A stretch of DNA of 64,000 nt from Candidatus Heimdallarchaeota archaeon (GTDB lineage: Archaea > Asgardarchaeota > Heimdallarchaeia > Heimdallarchaeales > Heimdallarchaeaceae): NCBI GenBank assembly GCA_030603365.1, contig JAUVXV010000005.1:64001-128000 (forward strand). The letters are read 5' to 3'. Below, in pieces: positions 24,093-49,559 of the stretch; position 1 is the first letter of the stretch, and the number at the start of each line of letters is the position of its first letter. The position numbers and the translations under genes are program-made. The notes beneath the pieces were generated by a model. The model was not told the DNA's origin, searched no databases, and saw only the letters and a list, made by a program, of their open reading frames with translations.

Positions 24093-25343
24093 ATGGCTAG
24101 AGAAGTGTGGAGGACAGAAGTGATGGAAACTACTCCCCACACTGCACTCGACCTTCTCTGTCATCAAACCAAGAACCTCTATAATAGGGCAATGTATGTA
24201 TTCAAACAACATTATACTCAAACAAAACATTGGCTGTCGTATCAGCAATTAAACAGGCAGCTGAAACAAGAGCCGTGCTACAGAATCTTGCCAGTTCATA
24301 CAGCCCAACACACCCTCAAGCTCCTCTCCCGCAACTGGAATGGATTTGGGAGGGCAATTAGGGAATTTCACAGCAATCCTCAAGCATTCCTTGGTAAACC
24401 CCGTCCTCCAGGATATAGGCCGAAGAATGGCCAACAAGTAGCGATTTTTACTAACCAACAAGCTAAGTTAAGGGATAATAGGTTACTTTTACCCAAGAAA
24501 GTTCCGTTTTCTATCAAAACTCGCTTACCAGACCATGTGAAACTTAAGGAAGTGCGTGTTGTCCCTCGAGGGGTAGGGTATACAATCGAGCTAGTTTATA
24601 GTAAGCTTGTTCCAGAAGTAGAGGTGCAAGGAACAAACATAGGAGCGATAGACCTAGGAGTCCACAACCTTCTCACTTATGTAGACAACATCCAGGGAAG
24701 ACCGATTGTTGTCAAGGATGAAGGAAAAGGGATCAAATCTACTATCAGGTACTATTTGAAAGAAATCAAGAAATTGCAAAACAAGTATGCACAGCAACAA
24801 AGATTAGCATTGAAACAACAGAACAGATTAGAGTACGGACAACGATTTCGCCACCTTCGTGAAATAAAACGTAGACTAGTGAAAGAGTGGATCCATCAGA
24901 TGAGTAGGAAGTTTGTCCAGCTTTGGGTACAAACAGGAATCCAACACGTATATATAGGATATAACCCCCTCTGGAAACAACAAGTGAAGTTAAGGAAGAA
25001 GACCACCCAGATGTTTGTTATCCTCCCGTTTGACCGATTTATCCACGCGCTCAAATACAAGGCTGAAGAGCATGGAATCATTGTTGAAAGGGTAGAAGAA
25101 TCTTACACTTCCAAGTGTAGTTTTCTAGATAATGAATCCCCTCAAAAGCATTCTACTTACCAAGGACGAAGACCCAAACGAGGGTTGTTCAAATCTGCAA
25201 CAGGCGTACTCATCAATGCTGATGTGAATGGGGCATACAATATTTTACTCAAAGGCGATCCGCAAGCACTACCTTCTTGTAGTGTGGGCGGGGTAGGAGG
25301 ATATGTGATTTATCCGCTTAGATGGAGTTTCGAGCTTTATTAA
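24093..25343 (+). CDS. tnpB: TnpB RNA-guided endonuclease (IS200/IS605 superfamily), RuvC-II-rearranged type
   Basis: KNLYN, RuvC-I AIDLG, YIGYN (Gly at the usual Glu), VEESYTSKCS and RuvC-III NADVNGAYNI. Visibly more GC-rich than its flanks. Confidence 0.93.
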   Translation: MAREVWRTEVMETTPHTALDLLCHQTKNLYNRAMYVFKQHYTQTKHWLSYQQLNRQLKQEPCYRILPVHTAQHTLKLLSRNWNGFGRAIREFHSNPQAFLGKPRPPGYRPKNGQQVAIFTNQQAKLRDNRLLLPKKVPFSIKTRLPDHVKLKEVRVVPRGVGYTIELVYSKLVPEVEVQGTNIGAIDLGVHNLLTYVDNIQGRPIVVKDEGKGIKSTIRYYLKEIKKLQNKYAQQQRLALKQQNRLEYGQRFRHLREIKRRLVKEWIHQMSRKFVQLWVQTGIQHVYIGYNPLWKQQVKLRKKTTQMFVILPFDRFIHALKYKAEEHGIIVERVEESYTSKCSFLDNESPQKHSTYQGRRPKRGLFKSATGVLINADVNGAYNILLKGDPQALPSCSVGGVGGYVIYPLRWSFELY

Positions 25344-25350
25344 ATCTAAG
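25255..25350 (+). ncRNA. Putative omegaRNA/reRNA scaffold overlapping the tnpB 3' end
   Basis: Hairpins GCACTAC-CTTCTT-GTAGTGT and GGATA-TGTGATT-TATCC, conserved with covariation in the copy at ~49130-49196. Confidence 0.65.
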
Positions 25351-25385
25351 GAAAAGGTTTTAACGAACAACGAAAAAATCTAATC

Positions 25386-27572
25386 ATGGTTATTAAGGAA
25401 TTCAAATATGACGTTCCTATATTAGATAAGGGATATGCAAACAAATCTCTATACATCAATCTTGATACATATGAAATAAGAATAGATGATGTAACTGAAG
25501 AAATGAAAGAGAAGTTCATTGGTGGTAAAGGTTTCGACCTTTATATGATGTGGAAACACTTGCCAAAAGATAAAAAAACAAAATGGGATGACCCAGAAAA
25601 TGTTCTTTGTATCGCAGCAGGTGCTTTGGGCGGAACAACTAACTTCCCTGGTTCTGGGAAAAGCATAGTAACAGCTGTTTCTCCTCTTACTGATATCATT
25701 ATTGACTCAAATGTTGGTGGTTATTTCGGTCCTTATCTGAAATACTCTGGATTCGATGTTCTAGCTATCCAAGGAAAATCAGATAAGGAAATTTATATTT
25801 ACATTGATGGAGAAGAAGGAAGAATAGTTATCGAAGATGCTGAGGACTTATCATCTGAAACCTACCAGTTAGGTACTATTCTAACAGACAAATATTGCGG
25901 AGAAGAAAAATTCAAACGAGATGTTTCTGTAGTTTCCGCTGGTCCAGGAGCAGAGAACACCCGTTGGGGTTGTCTGAATTTTAGTTATTATGATACCCGA
26001 AGAGGATATGCAAGATACAAGCAAGCTGGACGTGGGGGAACAGGTTCTGTTTTCCGAAATAAGAAACTTAAGGCACTCGTTGTTAAGAAACTCAAAGTGG
26101 TTACAAGAGGTAATAATCCAGCTGATCCTGAAGCTCTAAAAGAGATAGGTAAGAAGCACACACAAGAAATGATACAACTCGATCCCAAACAGAATGAAAT
26201 GAGGATGGTAGGTACAACTCATCTGGTTACAATAATGAACGATTATGATTTATTACCAACTAAAAACTTCAAGTATGGAAGTGATCCTCAAGCTGATAAA
26301 ATTGGTGCAGAAGTTTATCGTAATCTGTTCGAAAAAGGACCAGATCCATGTTGGAAAGGATGTGCGGTCGCTTGCACACACGGTGTAAAGGAATTTGTCC
26401 CTAAAACTGGTCCCTACAAAGGTCAGAAAGTATCAGTTGATGGTCCAGAATATGAAACTATTGGAGGAGTAGGTTCCAATTGGTATGTATGGGATCCTGA
26501 AGCGGTAATTGAGACAAACTTCTATTGTGATACTTACGGTCTAGATACAATTGGTATTGGAACAGGAATAGCTTTTGTTATGGAATGTTATGAATGTGGA
26601 ATTCTAGACAAAGAGAAAACTGGTGGTTTAGAATTAAATTTTGGAAATCAAGAAGCTGCAATGGAACTCATTCATCAAATGGCTAGAGGAGAAGGTTTTG
26701 GGGTCATAGTTGGTCAAGGAGTAAGAAGGATGAAGAAATACTTTGCTGAGAACTTTGGAGCTGATATTAACTTCCTTAACGACATAGGGATGGAATCAAA
26801 AGGCTTGGAATTCAGCGAATATATGACCAAAGAGTCTCTGGCTCAACAAGGTGGATATGGTTTTGCACTCAAAGGTGCACAACATGATGAAGCATGGTTG
26901 ATCTTTGAGGACATGGTCAGAGGTAATCTCCCAACATTCGAGAAAAAGGCAGAAGCTTTACATTGGTTCCCAATGTGGAGAACATCATTCGGATTACTTG
27001 GTTTGTGTAAGCTTCCATGGAATGACATAATACCAGAAGATAATCGAGAATTCGCCGAAGGAAAGATACGCAAAGAAGGTAGTTATGTTCCAGATGATTT
27101 AGCAGATCCTGCAAAAATTCCAGAACATGTCCAGAATTATGTTCAGTACTATAATGCTGTCACTGGAAGAGAAATAGACTCTGTAGAATATATCCGAATG
27201 AGTGAAAGAGTGTATAATTTTCAGAGAACTCTGAATCTGATGTTGATTCCTGATGGAACAACTTACAGAGAAATGGATACTATTCCTTACAGAGCTATGG
27301 GTCCTGTTACAGCAGAAGAATACCTTTCGAGAGAACAAGAGTATTATCTTAAACAGCTTAAAGACGAAATTGGTTTAAATCCGGATGGAATGAGTGTAAA
27401 AGAGAAAATGGGTGCTATTCGCAAACATCGTGAAGAAGCTTATAATAAACTAAAGGATACAGTTTATGAACGCAGAGGATGGACTAAGAACGGTGTTCCA
27501 ACAGTTAGGAAAATAAAAGAATTAGGGATGGATTTTCCTGAGATTATTGAATTAGTAGAACAACATCAATAA
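25386..27572 (+). CDS. aor: Tungsten aldehyde:ferredoxin oxidoreductase family protein
   Basis: SPLT..DSNVGG, AGRGGTG, CWKGCAVAC, GPEYET, CDTYGLDTI, GLCK, YERRGW. Confidence 0.92.
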   Translation: MVIKEFKYDVPILDKGYANKSLYINLDTYEIRIDDVTEEMKEKFIGGKGFDLYMMWKHLPKDKKTKWDDPENVLCIAAGALGGTTNFPGSGKSIVTAVSPLTDIIIDSNVGGYFGPYLKYSGFDVLAIQGKSDKEIYIYIDGEEGRIVIEDAEDLSSETYQLGTILTDKYCGEEKFKRDVSVVSAGPGAENTRWGCLNFSYYDTRRGYARYKQAGRGGTGSVFRNKKLKALVVKKLKVVTRGNNPADPEALKEIGKKHTQEMIQLDPKQNEMRMVGTTHLVTIMNDYDLLPTKNFKYGSDPQADKIGAEVYRNLFEKGPDPCWKGCAVACTHGVKEFVPKTGPYKGQKVSVDGPEYETIGGVGSNWYVWDPEAVIETNFYCDTYGLDTIGIGTGIAFVMECYECGILDKEKTGGLELNFGNQEAAMELIHQMARGEGFGVIVGQGVRRMKKYFAENFGADINFLNDIGMESKGLEFSEYMTKESLAQQGGYGFALKGAQHDEAWLIFEDMVRGNLPTFEKKAEALHWFPMWRTSFGLLGLCKLPWNDIIPEDNREFAEGKIRKEGSYVPDDLADPAKIPEHVQNYVQYYNAVTGREIDSVEYIRMSERVYNFQRTLNLMLIPDGTTYREMDTIPYRAMGPVTAEEYLSREQEYYLKQLKDEIGLNPDGMSVKEKMGAIRKHREEAYNKLKDTVYERRGWTKNGVPTVRKIKELGMDFPEIIELVEQHQ

Positions 27573-46466: not shown

Positions 46467-48206
46467 TCATTCACCCAAATCTCTCATGATATCAAAAATT
46501 TCTTTCTCCTCTTCTTCGACTTCTTCAGGAAGAGCATAAATTGTTCCCAATAAAGAAGCTCGATATTGAATCTTAGCTGCCATTTCTACTTGTTGACAAA
46601 CAGTCCAAGCTTTATCTAATGAACCACCGCAGCAAACATTTCCATGATTAGCAATGAAAACTGCTAGGTTATCCCCTAGAGCTTCAACCGCATTATTTGC
46701 CAAATCATCTGTACCAGCCATTCCAAATTCTGCTACCTCACACCCTCCAATAAATGGAATGACTTCATCAACTATAGGACCAATTGGCATACGCGCAATC
46801 GATAGAGCTGTAGAATATGGTGCGTGAGAATGTACAATGGCTTTAATATCTTCTCTTGCTTTGTAAATAGCTAAATGCACTCTTCTCTCAGAAGTTGGAT
46901 TTCTTTGACCAACAATTGTTTCTCCTTCTTCATCAATTAGAACTATATCCTCAATTCCCATTTCTTCATATTTTACAGTACTAGGAGTAACAAGAAAAGC
47001 ATCTTGACCATTAGGTAATTTTACCCGAACAGATACATTACCAGCTGTTCCAACAATGTATTCTTTCTTAATCATCTCAATACATACTTTGATGATTTCA
47101 GTAATATGACTTGAGTACATTTGAAGTGTAGGCTGAATATCGGAGAATTCATCAGATTTATCTGCATGTACATCAGTTGGATCATATCCTTGTAGAACTT
47201 CAGGATTTTTAACGTTCTCTGGTATTTGGTTGTTCAGAATTTTTTCGATTCCATCTACCATCATCATTGAATGACGATGATTTGTATCAAAAGTATCTCC
47301 TCCCACATGAGGGGTAACTATCACATTATCTAATTCTAGAAACTCATTATCCTGATCAATGGGTTCTATGGAAAAAACATCCAAAGCTGCACCAGCAATC
47401 TTTTTCTCTTTCAATGCGTCTAAGAGTGCATCCTCATCTACAATTGATGCTCTTGCAGTATTAATGAACAAGGTATGTTCCTGAATCAATGCAATTTGTT
47501 CTTCTCCTATCATATCATCTGTTTCATCTGTAGGTGGACAATGTAAGGTAATGATGTCAGAATTAGACATTAATGTATCCAAATCAACTGAGTTCCCTTG
47601 GATAGCTGTTAATCTTTGAGGCAAAACATAAGGATCAAAAACTAAGAACTTAACGCCAAAAGGTAGAAGAAGCTTAGCCACGTTAAAACCAATCCTTCCC
47701 AATCCCACAATACCAACTGTTTTACCACTTAGTTCAAATCCTTTGAATTGATTGTAATATTTTATGTAATCTTCAAAGTCATTAACCTGGAAAGCTTCCT
47801 CAGAGTGGAGGATACGTTCTATTGAATGGAGTTTACGAGCAAGACTAAGTATTAGTCCTACCGTTAATTCCGCTACTGAAATTGTATTTCTATTTGGTGC
47901 AAAAAGTACTGGAATACCTTTGGATGTTGCTGTTTCCAAATCAATGTTATTTGGGTCACCTCTTGTTGAACCAATTATCTTAAGATCAACTTGTTCAATA
48001 ACTGATTTCTTAACATTATCTCCCTCACAGATGAATATCTCAGCACCAATATCTTTTATTCGCTTGATAAGATCTTCATCATTGAAGTATAGGTTTTTTG
48101 TATCTCGCCAGCTCTCATAAACTATCTCATCTTTCAGGAGAATTTTCAGTTTCTCAAGAGCTTCTGGAGAGAAATCAGCTGTAATATATGCTTTCATTTC
48201 ATTCAC
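46467..48206 (-). CDS. Fusion of D-2-hydroxyacid dehydrogenase and class II aldolase (FucA-like)
   Basis: N-part has GIVGLGRIG, INTARA, LDVF..EP and TPHVGG. C-part has GNVSVR, PTSE..H, HSH and NHG. Confidence 0.88.
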   Translation of the reverse strand: MNEMKAYITADFSPEALEKLKILLKDEIVYESWRDTKNLYFNDEDLIKRIKDIGAEIFICEGDNVKKSVIEQVDLKIIGSTRGDPNNIDLETATSKGIPVLFAPNRNTISVAELTVGLILSLARKLHSIERILHSEEAFQVNDFEDYIKYYNQFKGFELSGKTVGIVGLGRIGFNVAKLLLPFGVKFLVFDPYVLPQRLTAIQGNSVDLDTLMSNSDIITLHCPPTDETDDMIGEEQIALIQEHTLFINTARASIVDEDALLDALKEKKIAGAALDVFSIEPIDQDNEFLELDNVIVTPHVGGDTFDTNHRHSMMMVDGIEKILNNQIPENVKNPEVLQGYDPTDVHADKSDEFSDIQPTLQMYSSHITEIIKVCIEMIKKEYIVGTAGNVSVRVKLPNGQDAFLVTPSTVKYEEMGIEDIVLIDEEGETIVGQRNPTSERRVHLAIYKAREDIKAIVHSHAPYSTALSIARMPIGPIVDEVIPFIGGCEVAEFGMAGTDDLANNAVEALGDNLAVFIANHGNVCCGGSLDKAWTVCQQVEMAAKIQYRASLLGTIYALPEEVEEEEKEIFDIMRDLGE

Positions 48207-48214
48207 ATTTTTAG

Positions 48215-49018
48215 TTAAAACATCAGTTTTCTTAATTTTAACATGTTCTTCATTTCGCCTTTTACTTCCAAGTTTCCACTTGAATAAGCCTTTATTGGAT
48301 TGATCTGTTTAGTCATCATTTTCACGAAAACTGTTGAATCCATCTTTACCTGAACAGCTGCTTCTTCATCAACACCTTCCGAAAAATCTAACCCTTCCTC
48401 ACCATTAATCTTGAATAGAAAAGATTTGGAAATATCTGGAAAAGTAATCATTAGAGTGTTATACCAATTCTTGAATGCTTTCTTCACTTTCTCAGTATTG
48501 TAACGATCAATTATACTTTGTAGACCATCATCATAATTATAGTCTGATGGAATCTGTGTTTCTTTTTTGGTTGGAGCTTTACTGATTTTAATAGGAATTT
48601 GTTTCAATACTGCTTTCTTAGGAGGAGCTGGTCTTGATATCGTTTTGGTTGATGTTTCCTTTGGTACAGCTACTTCTGATTTAGATGACAATGAGGGTCG
48701 AATTATTTTCAAAGACGCAGAAGGTGCAGTTTGTACAATTTCGTTTTCTAATACCTTAAAATCTATTTTTTTCAATTTTACTAATGCTTTAATTGCGATA
48801 ACTATTCCTGCTATTAACATTCCAAACCCCATTACAGCAAAAATTAACATGAAAATTAGAATCACTTTCATGTATAGAGAAGCAGCTAGCTCAAAATCAA
48901 CAATTTTTGCAAGAAGAACTGAAGCAGAAATAAGTAAAACTGACCCAGTTGCAAAGAATGCTATGAAACTGATAGTCATTTGTCGAATAACAAAATTATT
49001 CCTTAATCTATTGCCCAT
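48215..49018 (-). CDS. 2-TM protein with C-terminal SCP2 (sterol/lipid carrier) domain
   Basis: NPIKAYSSGNLEVKGEM SCP2 signature after a Pro/Lys-rich linker. Confidence 0.75.
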   Translation of the reverse strand: MGNRLRNNFVIRQMTISFIAFFATGSVLLISASVLLAKIVDFELAASLYMKVILIFMLIFAVMGFGMLIAGIVIAIKALVKLKKIDFKVLENEIVQTAPSASLKIIRPSLSSKSEVAVPKETSTKTISRPAPPKKAVLKQIPIKISKAPTKKETQIPSDYNYDDGLQSIIDRYNTEKVKKAFKNWYNTLMITFPDISKSFLFKINGEEGLDFSEGVDEEAAVQVKMDSTVFVKMMTKQINPIKAYSSGNLEVKGEMKNMLKLRKLMF

Positions 49019-49067
49019 GAGACAGTTTTTCTTTTAAACTTTATGAATTTTTTGTGTCATTCAGTCA

Positions 49068-49353
49068 TGTTGTGGGTGTTTTATAGAGGTTATCATAAGA
49101 TCTGGAAGATGACTGGCTTACAGTCTGTACTCACTCTAAAGGATAATTCACGTATCCTCCTACCCCGTCCACACTCAAAGAGTGCTTACGGATCGCTTAT
49201 TAGCTCCTCATTCATAACTGGGAGTATAGGAATGGATTCCATTTCTCTTGTACCTTGACCACAATCTATGGAAGGAGGTGGTCTGCAAAGTCTACACGAG
49301 CGGTAAACCCTATTCCTATACTTTAAGACTGTTTGCTCTATATAAACCCAACA
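49068..49353 (-). ncRNA. Stand-alone TnpB omegaRNA-like cassette or non-autonomous derivative of the tnpB element
   Basis: 49196->49131 aligns with tnpB 25255-25325. 49356->49332 resembles the tnpB promoter 24047-24070. An 11-bp stem pairs 49223-33 with 49312-22. Confidence 0.7.
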
Positions 49354-49559
49354 AAAATGTAAAATAACTAGATGACAGAATTACTTTATAAATTTTGATG
49401 AAAAAAGGTTTTCCTATATCATGTAAAACTTTTCTTCGAGTTTAAAAGTCAAAGACTCTATTATATTTACAGAGGCTAGCATCCTTAGAGCTGCACATCC
49501 CCTACCTTCTATTTCTCAAGTGCTAGCTTCTTCTCTTTCATTTCTACGATAAAAGATTC

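What the first reader, a model, noticed from the sequence alone, without database searches (positions are those of the whole stretch)
49068..49356. Orphan omegaRNA-like cassette 24 kb from its TnpB: same promoter, covarying scaffold, no ORF
Seen: minus strand 49196-49131 (GCGATCCGTAAGCACTCTTTGAGTGTGGACGGGGTAGGAGGATACGTGAATTATCCTTTAGA) matches tnpB 25255-25322 (GCGATCCGCAAGCACTACCTTCTTGTAGTGTGGGCGGGGTAGGAGGATATGTGATTTATCCGCTTAGA). Differences are compensatory (CCGC/GCGG vs CCGT/ACGG; CACTAC/GTAGTG vs CACTC/GAGTG) or fall in loops. Its upstream TTTTGTTGGGTTTATATAGAGCAAA resembles the tnpB upstream TTTTGTGGGGTTTATATAAGCAAA. The 1.2-kb ORF is replaced by a ~100-nt stem-loop (AGTATAGGAAT/ATTCCTATACT, GACCAC/GTGGTC). 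Inference: selection on RNA structure suggests an independently transcribed trans-acting guide RNA that gives TnpB a second target, or a MITE-like derivative.
Basis: partly seen in the sequence, partly recalled or inferred. Interest (0 to 1): 0.78.

Follow-up and report, generated by a model that had tools for sequence, protein, structure and literature searches.

The report
Guide-RNA mini-transposon keeps hidden hairpin
A 345-base, protein-less offshoot of a TnpB "jumping gene" in an Asgard archaeon carries a complete guide RNA aimed at its own empty insertion site (a known kind of element), and it has also kept one small piece from the middle of the lost gene, which turns out to be an RNA hairpin conserved inside the nuclease gene itself that I found described in no paper I searched.

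Summary
Window 49387-49043 (minus) is a 345-bp ORF-less mini-element of a Heimdallarchaeaceae TnpB family: left end, TATA promoter, 100-nt hairpin, full omegaRNA scaffold with its terminal pseudoknot, right end. A second copy lies on contig C13; about 28 copies at about 20 sites occur in 12 genomes of the genus. It sits at TTTAT^AAAG, the TATA box of an SCP2 gene; relatives show the empty site. Its guide is its own flank, so the 'second target' is that empty allele. The nearby tnpB is not its parent. Stand-alone omegaRNAs are known, and this scan had already reached that reading for what appears to be the C13 copy. New here: the 5' hairpin is a retained piece of the tnpB ORF (RuvC-I codons). 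The same helix covaries in 37/37 full-length genes of this clade, persists in distant ones, and is the only strongly folding ORF window upstream of the scaffold. Its role (TnpB loading/processing signal, RNA stabiliser or regulator) is inferred, not shown. No cognate transposase was found, and no RNA data were available.

The parts
49388..49392 (-). Transposon-adjacent motif TTTAT (outside the element; first part of the host SCP2 TATA box)
   Evidence: Empty allele TTTAT|AAAG in G029, G030, G016, G002, G014; T at -2 in 50/54 and at -1 in 52/54 left ends before the AT
49364..49387 (-). Left end: 10-nt spacer, then TGTCAT-NNN-GTTAT (family consensus TGTCAT-NNN-GTCAT)
   Evidence: Same motif at the same distance at both ends of tnpB copies and minis
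49339..49346 (-). TATA box TTTATATA of the left-end promoter; predicted start about 49322-49316, where full-length copies have their ATG
   Evidence: Sequence; spacing as in short-left-end tnpB copies; start site is inference, not measured
49223..49322 (-). 5' hairpin module derived from tnpB codons about 187-219 (RuvC-I region); core helix GACCAC/GTGGTC at 49283-49278/49262-49257
   Evidence: Model built only from minis hits tnpB ORFs at RuvC-I (best E 2.3e-8, top 10 hits at one place); covariation among minis and across minis plus ORFs
49043..49198 (-). omegaRNA scaffold: P1 49192-49188/49168-49164, inner hairpin 49184-49172, P2 49157-49141 with loop GTGAA, P3 49138-49134/49088-49084, terminal TTCAT 49047-49043 (pseudoknot partner of the P2 loop)
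   Evidence: paired positions substitute about half as often as unpaired ones
49055..49068 (-). Right-end motif ATGAC-NNN-ATGACA, inverted copy of the left-end motif, 10 nt from the terminal AT
49023..49042 (-). Predicted guide = host flank (SCP2 promoter to just before its ATG at 49018)
   Evidence: Follows the terminal pentamer; matches the empty allele; no TAM-adjacent near-match elsewhere in the genome or in viral contigs
24093..25343 (+). Full-length tnpB (416 aa, RuvC D187/E336/D377 intact, no zinc-finger cysteines); same clade, different end subfamily; one of several possible trans suppliers, not the parent
24663..24730 (+). The same RNA hairpin inside the window's tnpB ORF (GACAAC/GTTGTC, codons D198-N199 with V206-V207)
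25255..25387 (+). omegaRNA scaffold and right end of the window tnpB; its terminal AT is the AT of the aldehyde oxidoreductase start codon at 25386

Best explanation
A non-autonomous, mobile mini-transposon made from a TnpB element by two internal deletions. Shown: it keeps both ends, the promoter, one mid-ORF RNA hairpin and the whole omegaRNA; it has spread to about 20 sites in one genus; it inserted here after TTTAT, leaving flanks that rejoin exactly to the empty site seen in relatives. Inferred from TnpB biology: the left-end promoter makes an RNA of about 300 nt; TnpB supplied in trans by one of the genome's 8 or more full-length copies binds it, recognises TTAT plus the 20-nt flank, and cuts the element-free allele, so that repair from the filled allele restores or spreads the element (retention/homing). 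The filled allele escapes because TTCAT replaces TTTAT. The retained hairpin is a cis RNA signal also needed by full-length tnpB mRNA; I think it most likely recruits TnpB or licenses trimming of the omegaRNA (about 0.4 within this model), ahead of 5'-end protection (0.3), translational feedback (0.15) or a role in transposition (0.15). The mobiliser is most likely an IS607-type serine recombinase acting in trans through the shared AT dinucleotide (inferred; not found).
For: Second copy and family. Empty sites and no cassette in 15 orthologous loci. TAM consensus. Pseudoknot kept with a two-sided change: loop GTGAA with end TTCAT in three minis against GTGAT/ATCAT in 45 ORF and 13 mini copies. 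5' module: 82% of cells paired, 34 two-sided changes, 0/500 shuffles, slid controls 34-46%. In 37 non-redundant tnpB CDSs both polymorphic pairs of the helix pair 37/37 (shuffled 31.0 and 29.5) and rank 1 and 8 of 4,985 column pairs in a test that keeps relatedness; codons 190-213 fold at mean z -2.69, all other windows between -0.82 and +0.39; synonymous variation drops to 0.48-0.57 there. IS607 tnpA or remnants at 23 of 195 loci of the wider clade, Y1 at none. Stand-alone omegaRNAs and restorative homing are established (PMC10055086, PMC10691335, PMC13565253).
Against: No transcript, binding or cleavage data. No transposase gene inside any of about 50 complete elements with these ends; the genome's own IS607 elements have other ends. 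No covarying pairing between hairpin and scaffold, so a joined bipartite fold is unsupported. Other multi-copy minis (type B; Lokiarchaeia G047) carry a different 5' hairpin with no detectable match to RuvC-I, so this hairpin is not the only way to make a lasting mini. Among changed pairs in five copies, 21 are kept and 20 broken.
Confidence: 0.68

Rival explanations
1. Same mini-element, but the hairpin is only a generic 5'-end stabiliser: any strong hairpin at the transcript start lets an untranslated omegaRNA survive, and the RuvC-I hairpin was the piece at hand.
For: The module starts at the predicted start site and its lower stem is longer in minis than in ORFs. Type-B minis and Lokiarchaeia minis use unrelated 5' hairpins. 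Deletion products without a hairpin were seen only as single copies (L270, L277, L041, L406).
Against: It does not explain why the hairpin is under selection in the middle of full-length mRNAs across 35-100% protein identity, nor why minis keep its bulge and internal-loop layout and invariant bases.
Confidence: 0.2
2. A host-domesticated trans guide that redirects TnpB to a virus, another element or a host promoter.
For: Three sites are shared by 2-5 species, one with a decayed left end; the guide here covers a host promoter.
Against: The guide equals the flank of a recent insertion absent from all orthologues; no other target in genome or viral contigs; every site has a different guide; at a shared site the mini is no more conserved than its flanks and the guide carries an 8-nt indel; TnpBs keep their catalytic triad.
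Confidence: 0.04
3. The ends are true terminal inverted repeats with a 2-bp AT target duplication, moved by an unrecognised DDE-type or Cas1-type transposase, and the hairpin is a DNA-level or RNA-level mobility signal.
For: Ends are symmetric about the AT; an AT duplication and a 2-bp AT crossover give identical sequences; symmetric ends are reported for DDE-linked TnpBs and Asgard Cas1-TnpB loci (PMC10691335); no cognate serine TnpA found.
Against: The outer 10 bp vary freely in sequence (29-62% left/right identity at most positions) while their length is fixed; no IS630 or Cas1 over cut-off in the genome and the one IS4/5-type DDE gene lacks the motif; wherever a transposase adjoins this clade it is IS607-type; G-U-type intermediates favour RNA.
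Confidence: 0.1
4. Inert relic of a decayed tnpB; conservation reflects recent origin.
For: No expression data.
Against: Minis form their own old lineage (70-89% alike, at most 61% to any ORF copy), have jumped to about 20 sites, and show two-sided changes in both RNA domains.
Confidence: 0.03

Closest known systems
PATE-like, protein-less IS200/IS605 derivatives of Geobacillus stearothermophilus that encode omegaRNAs (Meers et al., PMC10055086)
   Same: Both ends kept, no protein, omegaRNA that needs TnpB in trans, AT-rich TAM (TTTAT for ISGst2) and a similar terminal motif, guide = flank.
   Different: No Y1 TnpA in 24/24 genomes of the genus; ends are inverted motif pairs, not same-strand subterminal hairpins; a second, mid-ORF RNA domain is retained.
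Stand-alone mobilised omegaRNAs of OMEGA systems (Altae-Tran et al. 2021, as summarised in PMC10691335)
   Same: Effector-less, transposase-less, mobile guide RNA loci beside effector-encoding copies.
   Different: Shown there to work in trans; here untested, in a zinc-finger-less TnpB clade with no solved relative detectable by sequence.
IS607 family (IS607, IS1535, ISC1926, CboIStron; PMC6188088, 10.1101/2023.11.20.567912)
   Same: Short repeated motifs and an imperfect inverted repeat near the ends, a shared dinucleotide at both junctions, serine TnpA beside distant members of this TnpB clade.
   Different: Junction is AT after TTAT, not GG after a G-rich TAM; the two ends are symmetric; no cognate TnpA found.
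Cis-inhibitory mRNA region of AmaTnpB (Nety et al., PMC10278001)
   Same: A part of tnpB mRNA far upstream of the omegaRNA that may regulate the RNP.
   Different: That region lies next to RuvC-II and is thought to pair with the omegaRNA; this one lies at RuvC-I, folds on itself, shows no covarying pairing with the scaffold, and is kept by the minis.

Membership tests
Stand-alone omegaRNA / PATE-like mini-element | No protein-coding gene between intact transposon ends | tested here: met
   345 bp, no ORF, both end motifs
Stand-alone omegaRNA / PATE-like mini-element | Scaffold homologous to the tnpB 3' RNA, with loop-to-terminus pseudoknot | tested here: met
Stand-alone omegaRNA / PATE-like mini-element | Mobility: copies at unrelated sites, empty alleles | tested here: met
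Stand-alone omegaRNA / PATE-like mini-element | Transcribed, loaded by TnpB in trans, guides cleavage | not testable with these tools
   No RNA holder listed; needs biochemistry
IS200/IS605 (Y1) | Y1 HUH TnpA in cis or in the genome | tested here: not met
   0 of 24 genomes of the genus; 0 of 195 clade loci; genomes are 72-92% complete
IS200/IS605 (Y1) | AT-rich tetra/pentanucleotide target outside the left end | tested here: met
   (W)TTAT
IS200/IS605 (Y1) | Conserved subterminal hairpins at both ends | tested here: not met
   Hairpins form in some right ends but not in the cassette or C6-type ends; the conserved feature is an inverted sequence motif (read by eye)
IS607 (serine recombinase) | Serine TnpA associated with the element or its TnpB lineage | tested here: inconclusive
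   NF033518 TnpA beside 35-48% relatives; none inside elements with these ends
IS607 (serine recombinase) | GG dinucleotide at termini and target | tested here: not met
   AT at both junctions
IS607 (serine recombinase) | Short directly repeated motifs and an imperfect inverted repeat near the ends | tested here: met
   GTCAT twice per end, inverted between ends (definition from PMC6188088)
IS607 (serine recombinase) | No target-site duplication | tested here: inconclusive
   Flanks rejoin to the empty site with one AT; a 2-bp crossover core and a 2-bp duplication cannot be told apart by sequence
Asgard Cas1 (aCas1)-TnpB transposons | aCas1 gene; GTTCACTCA motif downstream of tnpB | tested here: not met
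   No Cas1 over cut-off in the genome; motif not at these right ends
Known Rfam RNA family (ribozyme, SRP, RNase P, sot RNAs) | Match to a covariance model | tested here: not met
   Nothing at gathering score; best E 0.99

The most novel reading that the evidence does not exclude
In this widespread zinc-finger-less TnpB clade, a second RNA domain hidden in the nuclease's own active-site coding sequence, about 570 nt upstream of the omegaRNA, is a required part of making or using the guide RNP (loading/processing signal or second RNA subunit), and these Asgard minis are a natural deletion scan that joins the two essential RNA parts into one minimal guide.
Probability: 0.3. Interest if true: 0.8.

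Novelty: new variant of a known kind. Interest (0 to 1): 0.55.

Why it matters
The mini-element itself is a known kind. What it reveals matters more. TnpB guides are assumed to lie at the gene's 3' end, and TnpBs are screened with codon-optimised genes and 3'-only RNAs, which would erase a mid-gene RNA signal. If this hairpin is needed, it would explain failures in such screens for a large clade with no solved structure, hand over a ready-made 300-nt minimal RNA, and make the open question of how TnpB finds and trims its own guide testable with one synonymous recoding. Separately, the family has spread through a whole Asgard genus with symmetric AT-centred ends and no visible transposase, and here it landed in a TATA box while its right end rebuilds a near-copy at the same spacing.

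Tried and rejected
Rfam at gathering and E-value thresholds: nothing. Y1 TnpA, IS630, Cas1, tyrosine integrase and the genome's own IS607 or host serine recombinases as cognate mobiliser: absent, or not flanked by these ends. Guide targets in genome and viral contigs: none; element ends and scaffold in viral contigs: none. Pairing of the module loop (CCTCC) with scaffold GGAGG: complementary but invariant, and the loop pairs internally; rejected for lack of covariation. HDV-like ribozyme and bulge-helix-bulge readings: checked by eye, geometry does not fit. Type-B and Lokiarchaeia minis as independent retentions of the RuvC-I hairpin: no detectable homology. Host domestication at shared sites: mini not more conserved than flanks. 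Public runs: no RNA holder listed; four DNA contig sets cover pieces of the locus, none spans or joins across it. PDB sequence search: no hit. (structure string mistyped), the pair tests (index off by one) and the end-finder were my errors and were superseded; still mis-called the end of several minis, including the three GTGAA copies, which I read from alignment A2.

Full report
Host and setting. The window is G000:C9:64001-128000. TnpB relatives at 60-87% come from Candidatus Heimdallarchaeota / Heimdallarchaeaceae. The genome (89% complete) holds 8 full-length and several contig-edge copies of a roughly 417-aa TnpB that lacks zinc-finger cysteines and keeps RuvC D187/E336/D377.

Observation. 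The quoted strings are present (49196-49135 and 25255-25322), the match is E 2e-10, the compensatory changes are as stated, and the promoter likeness is real but weak (E 0.096). The stem-loop exists and the predicted RNA folds better than all 100 shuffles (z -3.07).

True extent. blastn found a second copy on C13 (85.5% over 352 nt). Comparing all copies defines the ends: left, TT-AT, 10 variable nt, TGTCAT-NNN-GTCAT; right, the inverse motif, 10 nt, then the terminal AT. The element is 49387-49043, 345 bp. Over 56 end pairs (about six spurious) the motif positions agree between left and inverted right end at 66-100%, most spacer positions at 29-62%. Other subfamilies use other motifs with their own symmetric spacing (TGTAAC, 12 nt; CGTTAT, 13-14 nt). 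The window's tnpB belongs to the last group, and its scaffold/right end is only 54% like the cassette, while minis are 70-89% alike and at most 61% like any ORF copy. It is not the parent; the minis are an old lineage of their own.

Mobility and target. A model of the 5' module finds 27 non-ORF hits in 12 of 31 family genomes, all in one genus, and one more turned up later. They fall at about 20 sites with different neighbours where checked. Fifteen orthologous SCP2 loci lack the cassette; G029 shows the intact junction TTTAT|AAAG with matching sequence on both sides, and G030, G016, G002 and G014 show the same box. That box is the TATA box of the leaderless SCP2 gene (29 nt from its first T to the ATG); the right end rebuilds TTCATAAA at the same distance (sequence). 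Left flanks give (W)TTAT.

The omegaRNA. It continues through a TAGAG/CTCTA stem to the terminal pentamer, which pairs with the loop of the GGATA/TATCC hairpin: GTGAT/ATCAT in 45 ORF and 13 mini copies, GTGGT with ATCAT or ACCAT, GGGTT/AACCT in distant relatives, and GTGAA/TTCAT in the window copy and two G016 minis, a two-sided change. [quoted passage not shown] Paired positions substitute at 4-13% against 9-30% for unpaired ones in five copies, although changed pairs are kept and broken about equally. The guide is therefore 49042-49023. It has no TAM-adjacent match with at most 1 mismatch in 12 nt in the genome and no exact match in viral contigs. By the established model (PMC10055086; PMC13565253) its target is the empty allele.

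The 5' module. It is a long irregular hairpin that covaries among 22 minis: 82% of cells paired, 34 two-sided changes, 0/500 shuffles, slid controls 34-46%. A model built only from minis also hit inside tnpB genes, and nhmmer placed its ten best CDS hits on the same stretch, the RuvC-I region from the DLG motif to the KGI motif (best E 2.3e-8); alignment A5 shows the homology. The mini thus arose by two deletions, one from the start codon to about codon 187 and one from about codon 219 to the scaffold. In 37 non-redundant CDSs the helix between D198-N199 and V/I206-V/I207 pairs 37/37 at both polymorphic positions, linking a silent third position to a V/I change (C-G 16, T-A 14, T-G 7; C-G 25, T-A 11, T-G 1; never C-A); I205 is ATT in 37/37 and K208 is AAG in 35/37 against 36% gene-wide. 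Against 4,985 comparable column pairs of the same genes, which keeps relatedness, three hairpin pairs rank 1, 8 and 17; the paired states change 11 times on the tree. Codons 190-213 are the only strongly folding 24-codon window (mean z -2.69 against synonymous resampling; others -0.82 to +0.39) and the deepest synonymous trough outside the 3' RNA. The signal persists in 53 TnpBs at 35-49% identity and in some phage-borne ones. Across minis and ORFs the core is 95% paired with 6 two-sided pairs. In G000 the core model gives 13 hits; the 11 listed are the 2 minis and 9 tnpB ORFs. I found no covarying pairing between hairpin and scaffold. Hairpin-less deletions exist but were seen only once each; two other multi-copy mini families carry unrelated 5' hairpins. 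I found no paper describing this hairpin; the nearest is a cis-inhibitory stretch near RuvC-II in AmaTnpB (PMC10278001).

Mobiliser. No Y1 TnpA in 24 genomes of the genus. Among 195 loci of the wider clade, 23 have an IS607 serine TnpA or remnant and none a Y1. But no element with these ends encodes a transposase, the junction is AT and not GG, and the genome's own IS607 elements have other ends. I therefore call it IS607-lineage, not an IS607 member; an AT-duplicating transposase is not excluded.

Mechanism. Shown: anatomy, mobility, empty site, RNA-level selection on two domains, origin of the module. Inferred: transcription from the left-end TATA box, loading of TnpB in trans, cleavage of the empty allele and repair from the filled one, serine-recombinase mobility, and the hairpin's role.

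Verdict. A new variant of a known kind. Interest 0.55.

Noticed in passing
window about 49520-49470 (minus), between the ThiS stop and the cassette: A long-loop hairpin (arms GAAGCTAGC / GCTAGC(C/T)TC) is conserved in the same intergenic region of G029, G016, G024, G008, G017, G012 and G023, which lack the cassette: a host RNA or terminator-like element.
   Followed up: no
window 25383-25388; G000 C3:62206-62292: The window tnpB's right end supplies the AT of the aldehyde oxidoreductase start codon, so its guide would be the first codons of that gene; a remnant on C3 sits the same way at another start codon.
   Followed up: partly
L010 (G000 C3:19500-19300), L009 (C15:222800-223010), L022, L219, L446: A second family of ORF-less omegaRNA minis ('type B') with a different 5' hairpin of unknown origin; one copy inserted after TTAT upstream of the SCP2 orthologue in G015.
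   Followed up: partly
L390-L393 (G047, Promethearchaeota): Four ORF-less omegaRNA minis whose 5' part includes a tnpA-derived stretch and several small hairpins.
   Followed up: partly
L037 and L250 (G017 C127, C138): An IS607 element of the 620-650-aa TnpB type appears to have inserted into a mini, separating its 5' hairpin from the scaffold.
   Followed up: no
G000 C14:340883-343453, C16:152796-155367, C16:51327-54000: Three IS607 elements with serine TnpA and unusually long (620-650 aa) TnpB-like ORFs, with their own end motif.
   Followed up: partly
G000 C14:84500-86700 and C3:29350-31500: Two roughly 500-aa TnpB/Cas12f-like genes with a conserved, structured 300-nt leader and a long structured tail wholly outside the ORF.
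   Followed up: no
G000 C15:328334-329065 and C2:49039-49788; L059-L078: Two solo serine-recombinase-like genes (about 245 aa) are syntenic across the whole family, one next to a small GTPase: apparently domesticated host genes.
   Followed up: no
tnpB codons 10-35 and 217-226 (window about 24120-24200 and 24740-24770): Milder troughs of synonymous variation (0.55-0.68) in the Heimdall clade may mark further overlapping signals.
   Followed up: no
L032 (G016 C54) versus L013 (G016 C174): Two near-identical minis differ in the inner scaffold hairpin, one matching full-length tnpB copies: minis seem to recombine with their parents.
   Followed up: no
window 46467-48206: A 579-aa fusion of a D-2-hydroxyacid dehydrogenase and a class II aldolase directly downstream of the SCP2 gene; the mini's promoter points into this unit.
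   Followed up: no
L014/L015 and L098/L128: A mini and two full-length elements lie immediately after tRNA gene 3' ends.
   Followed up: no
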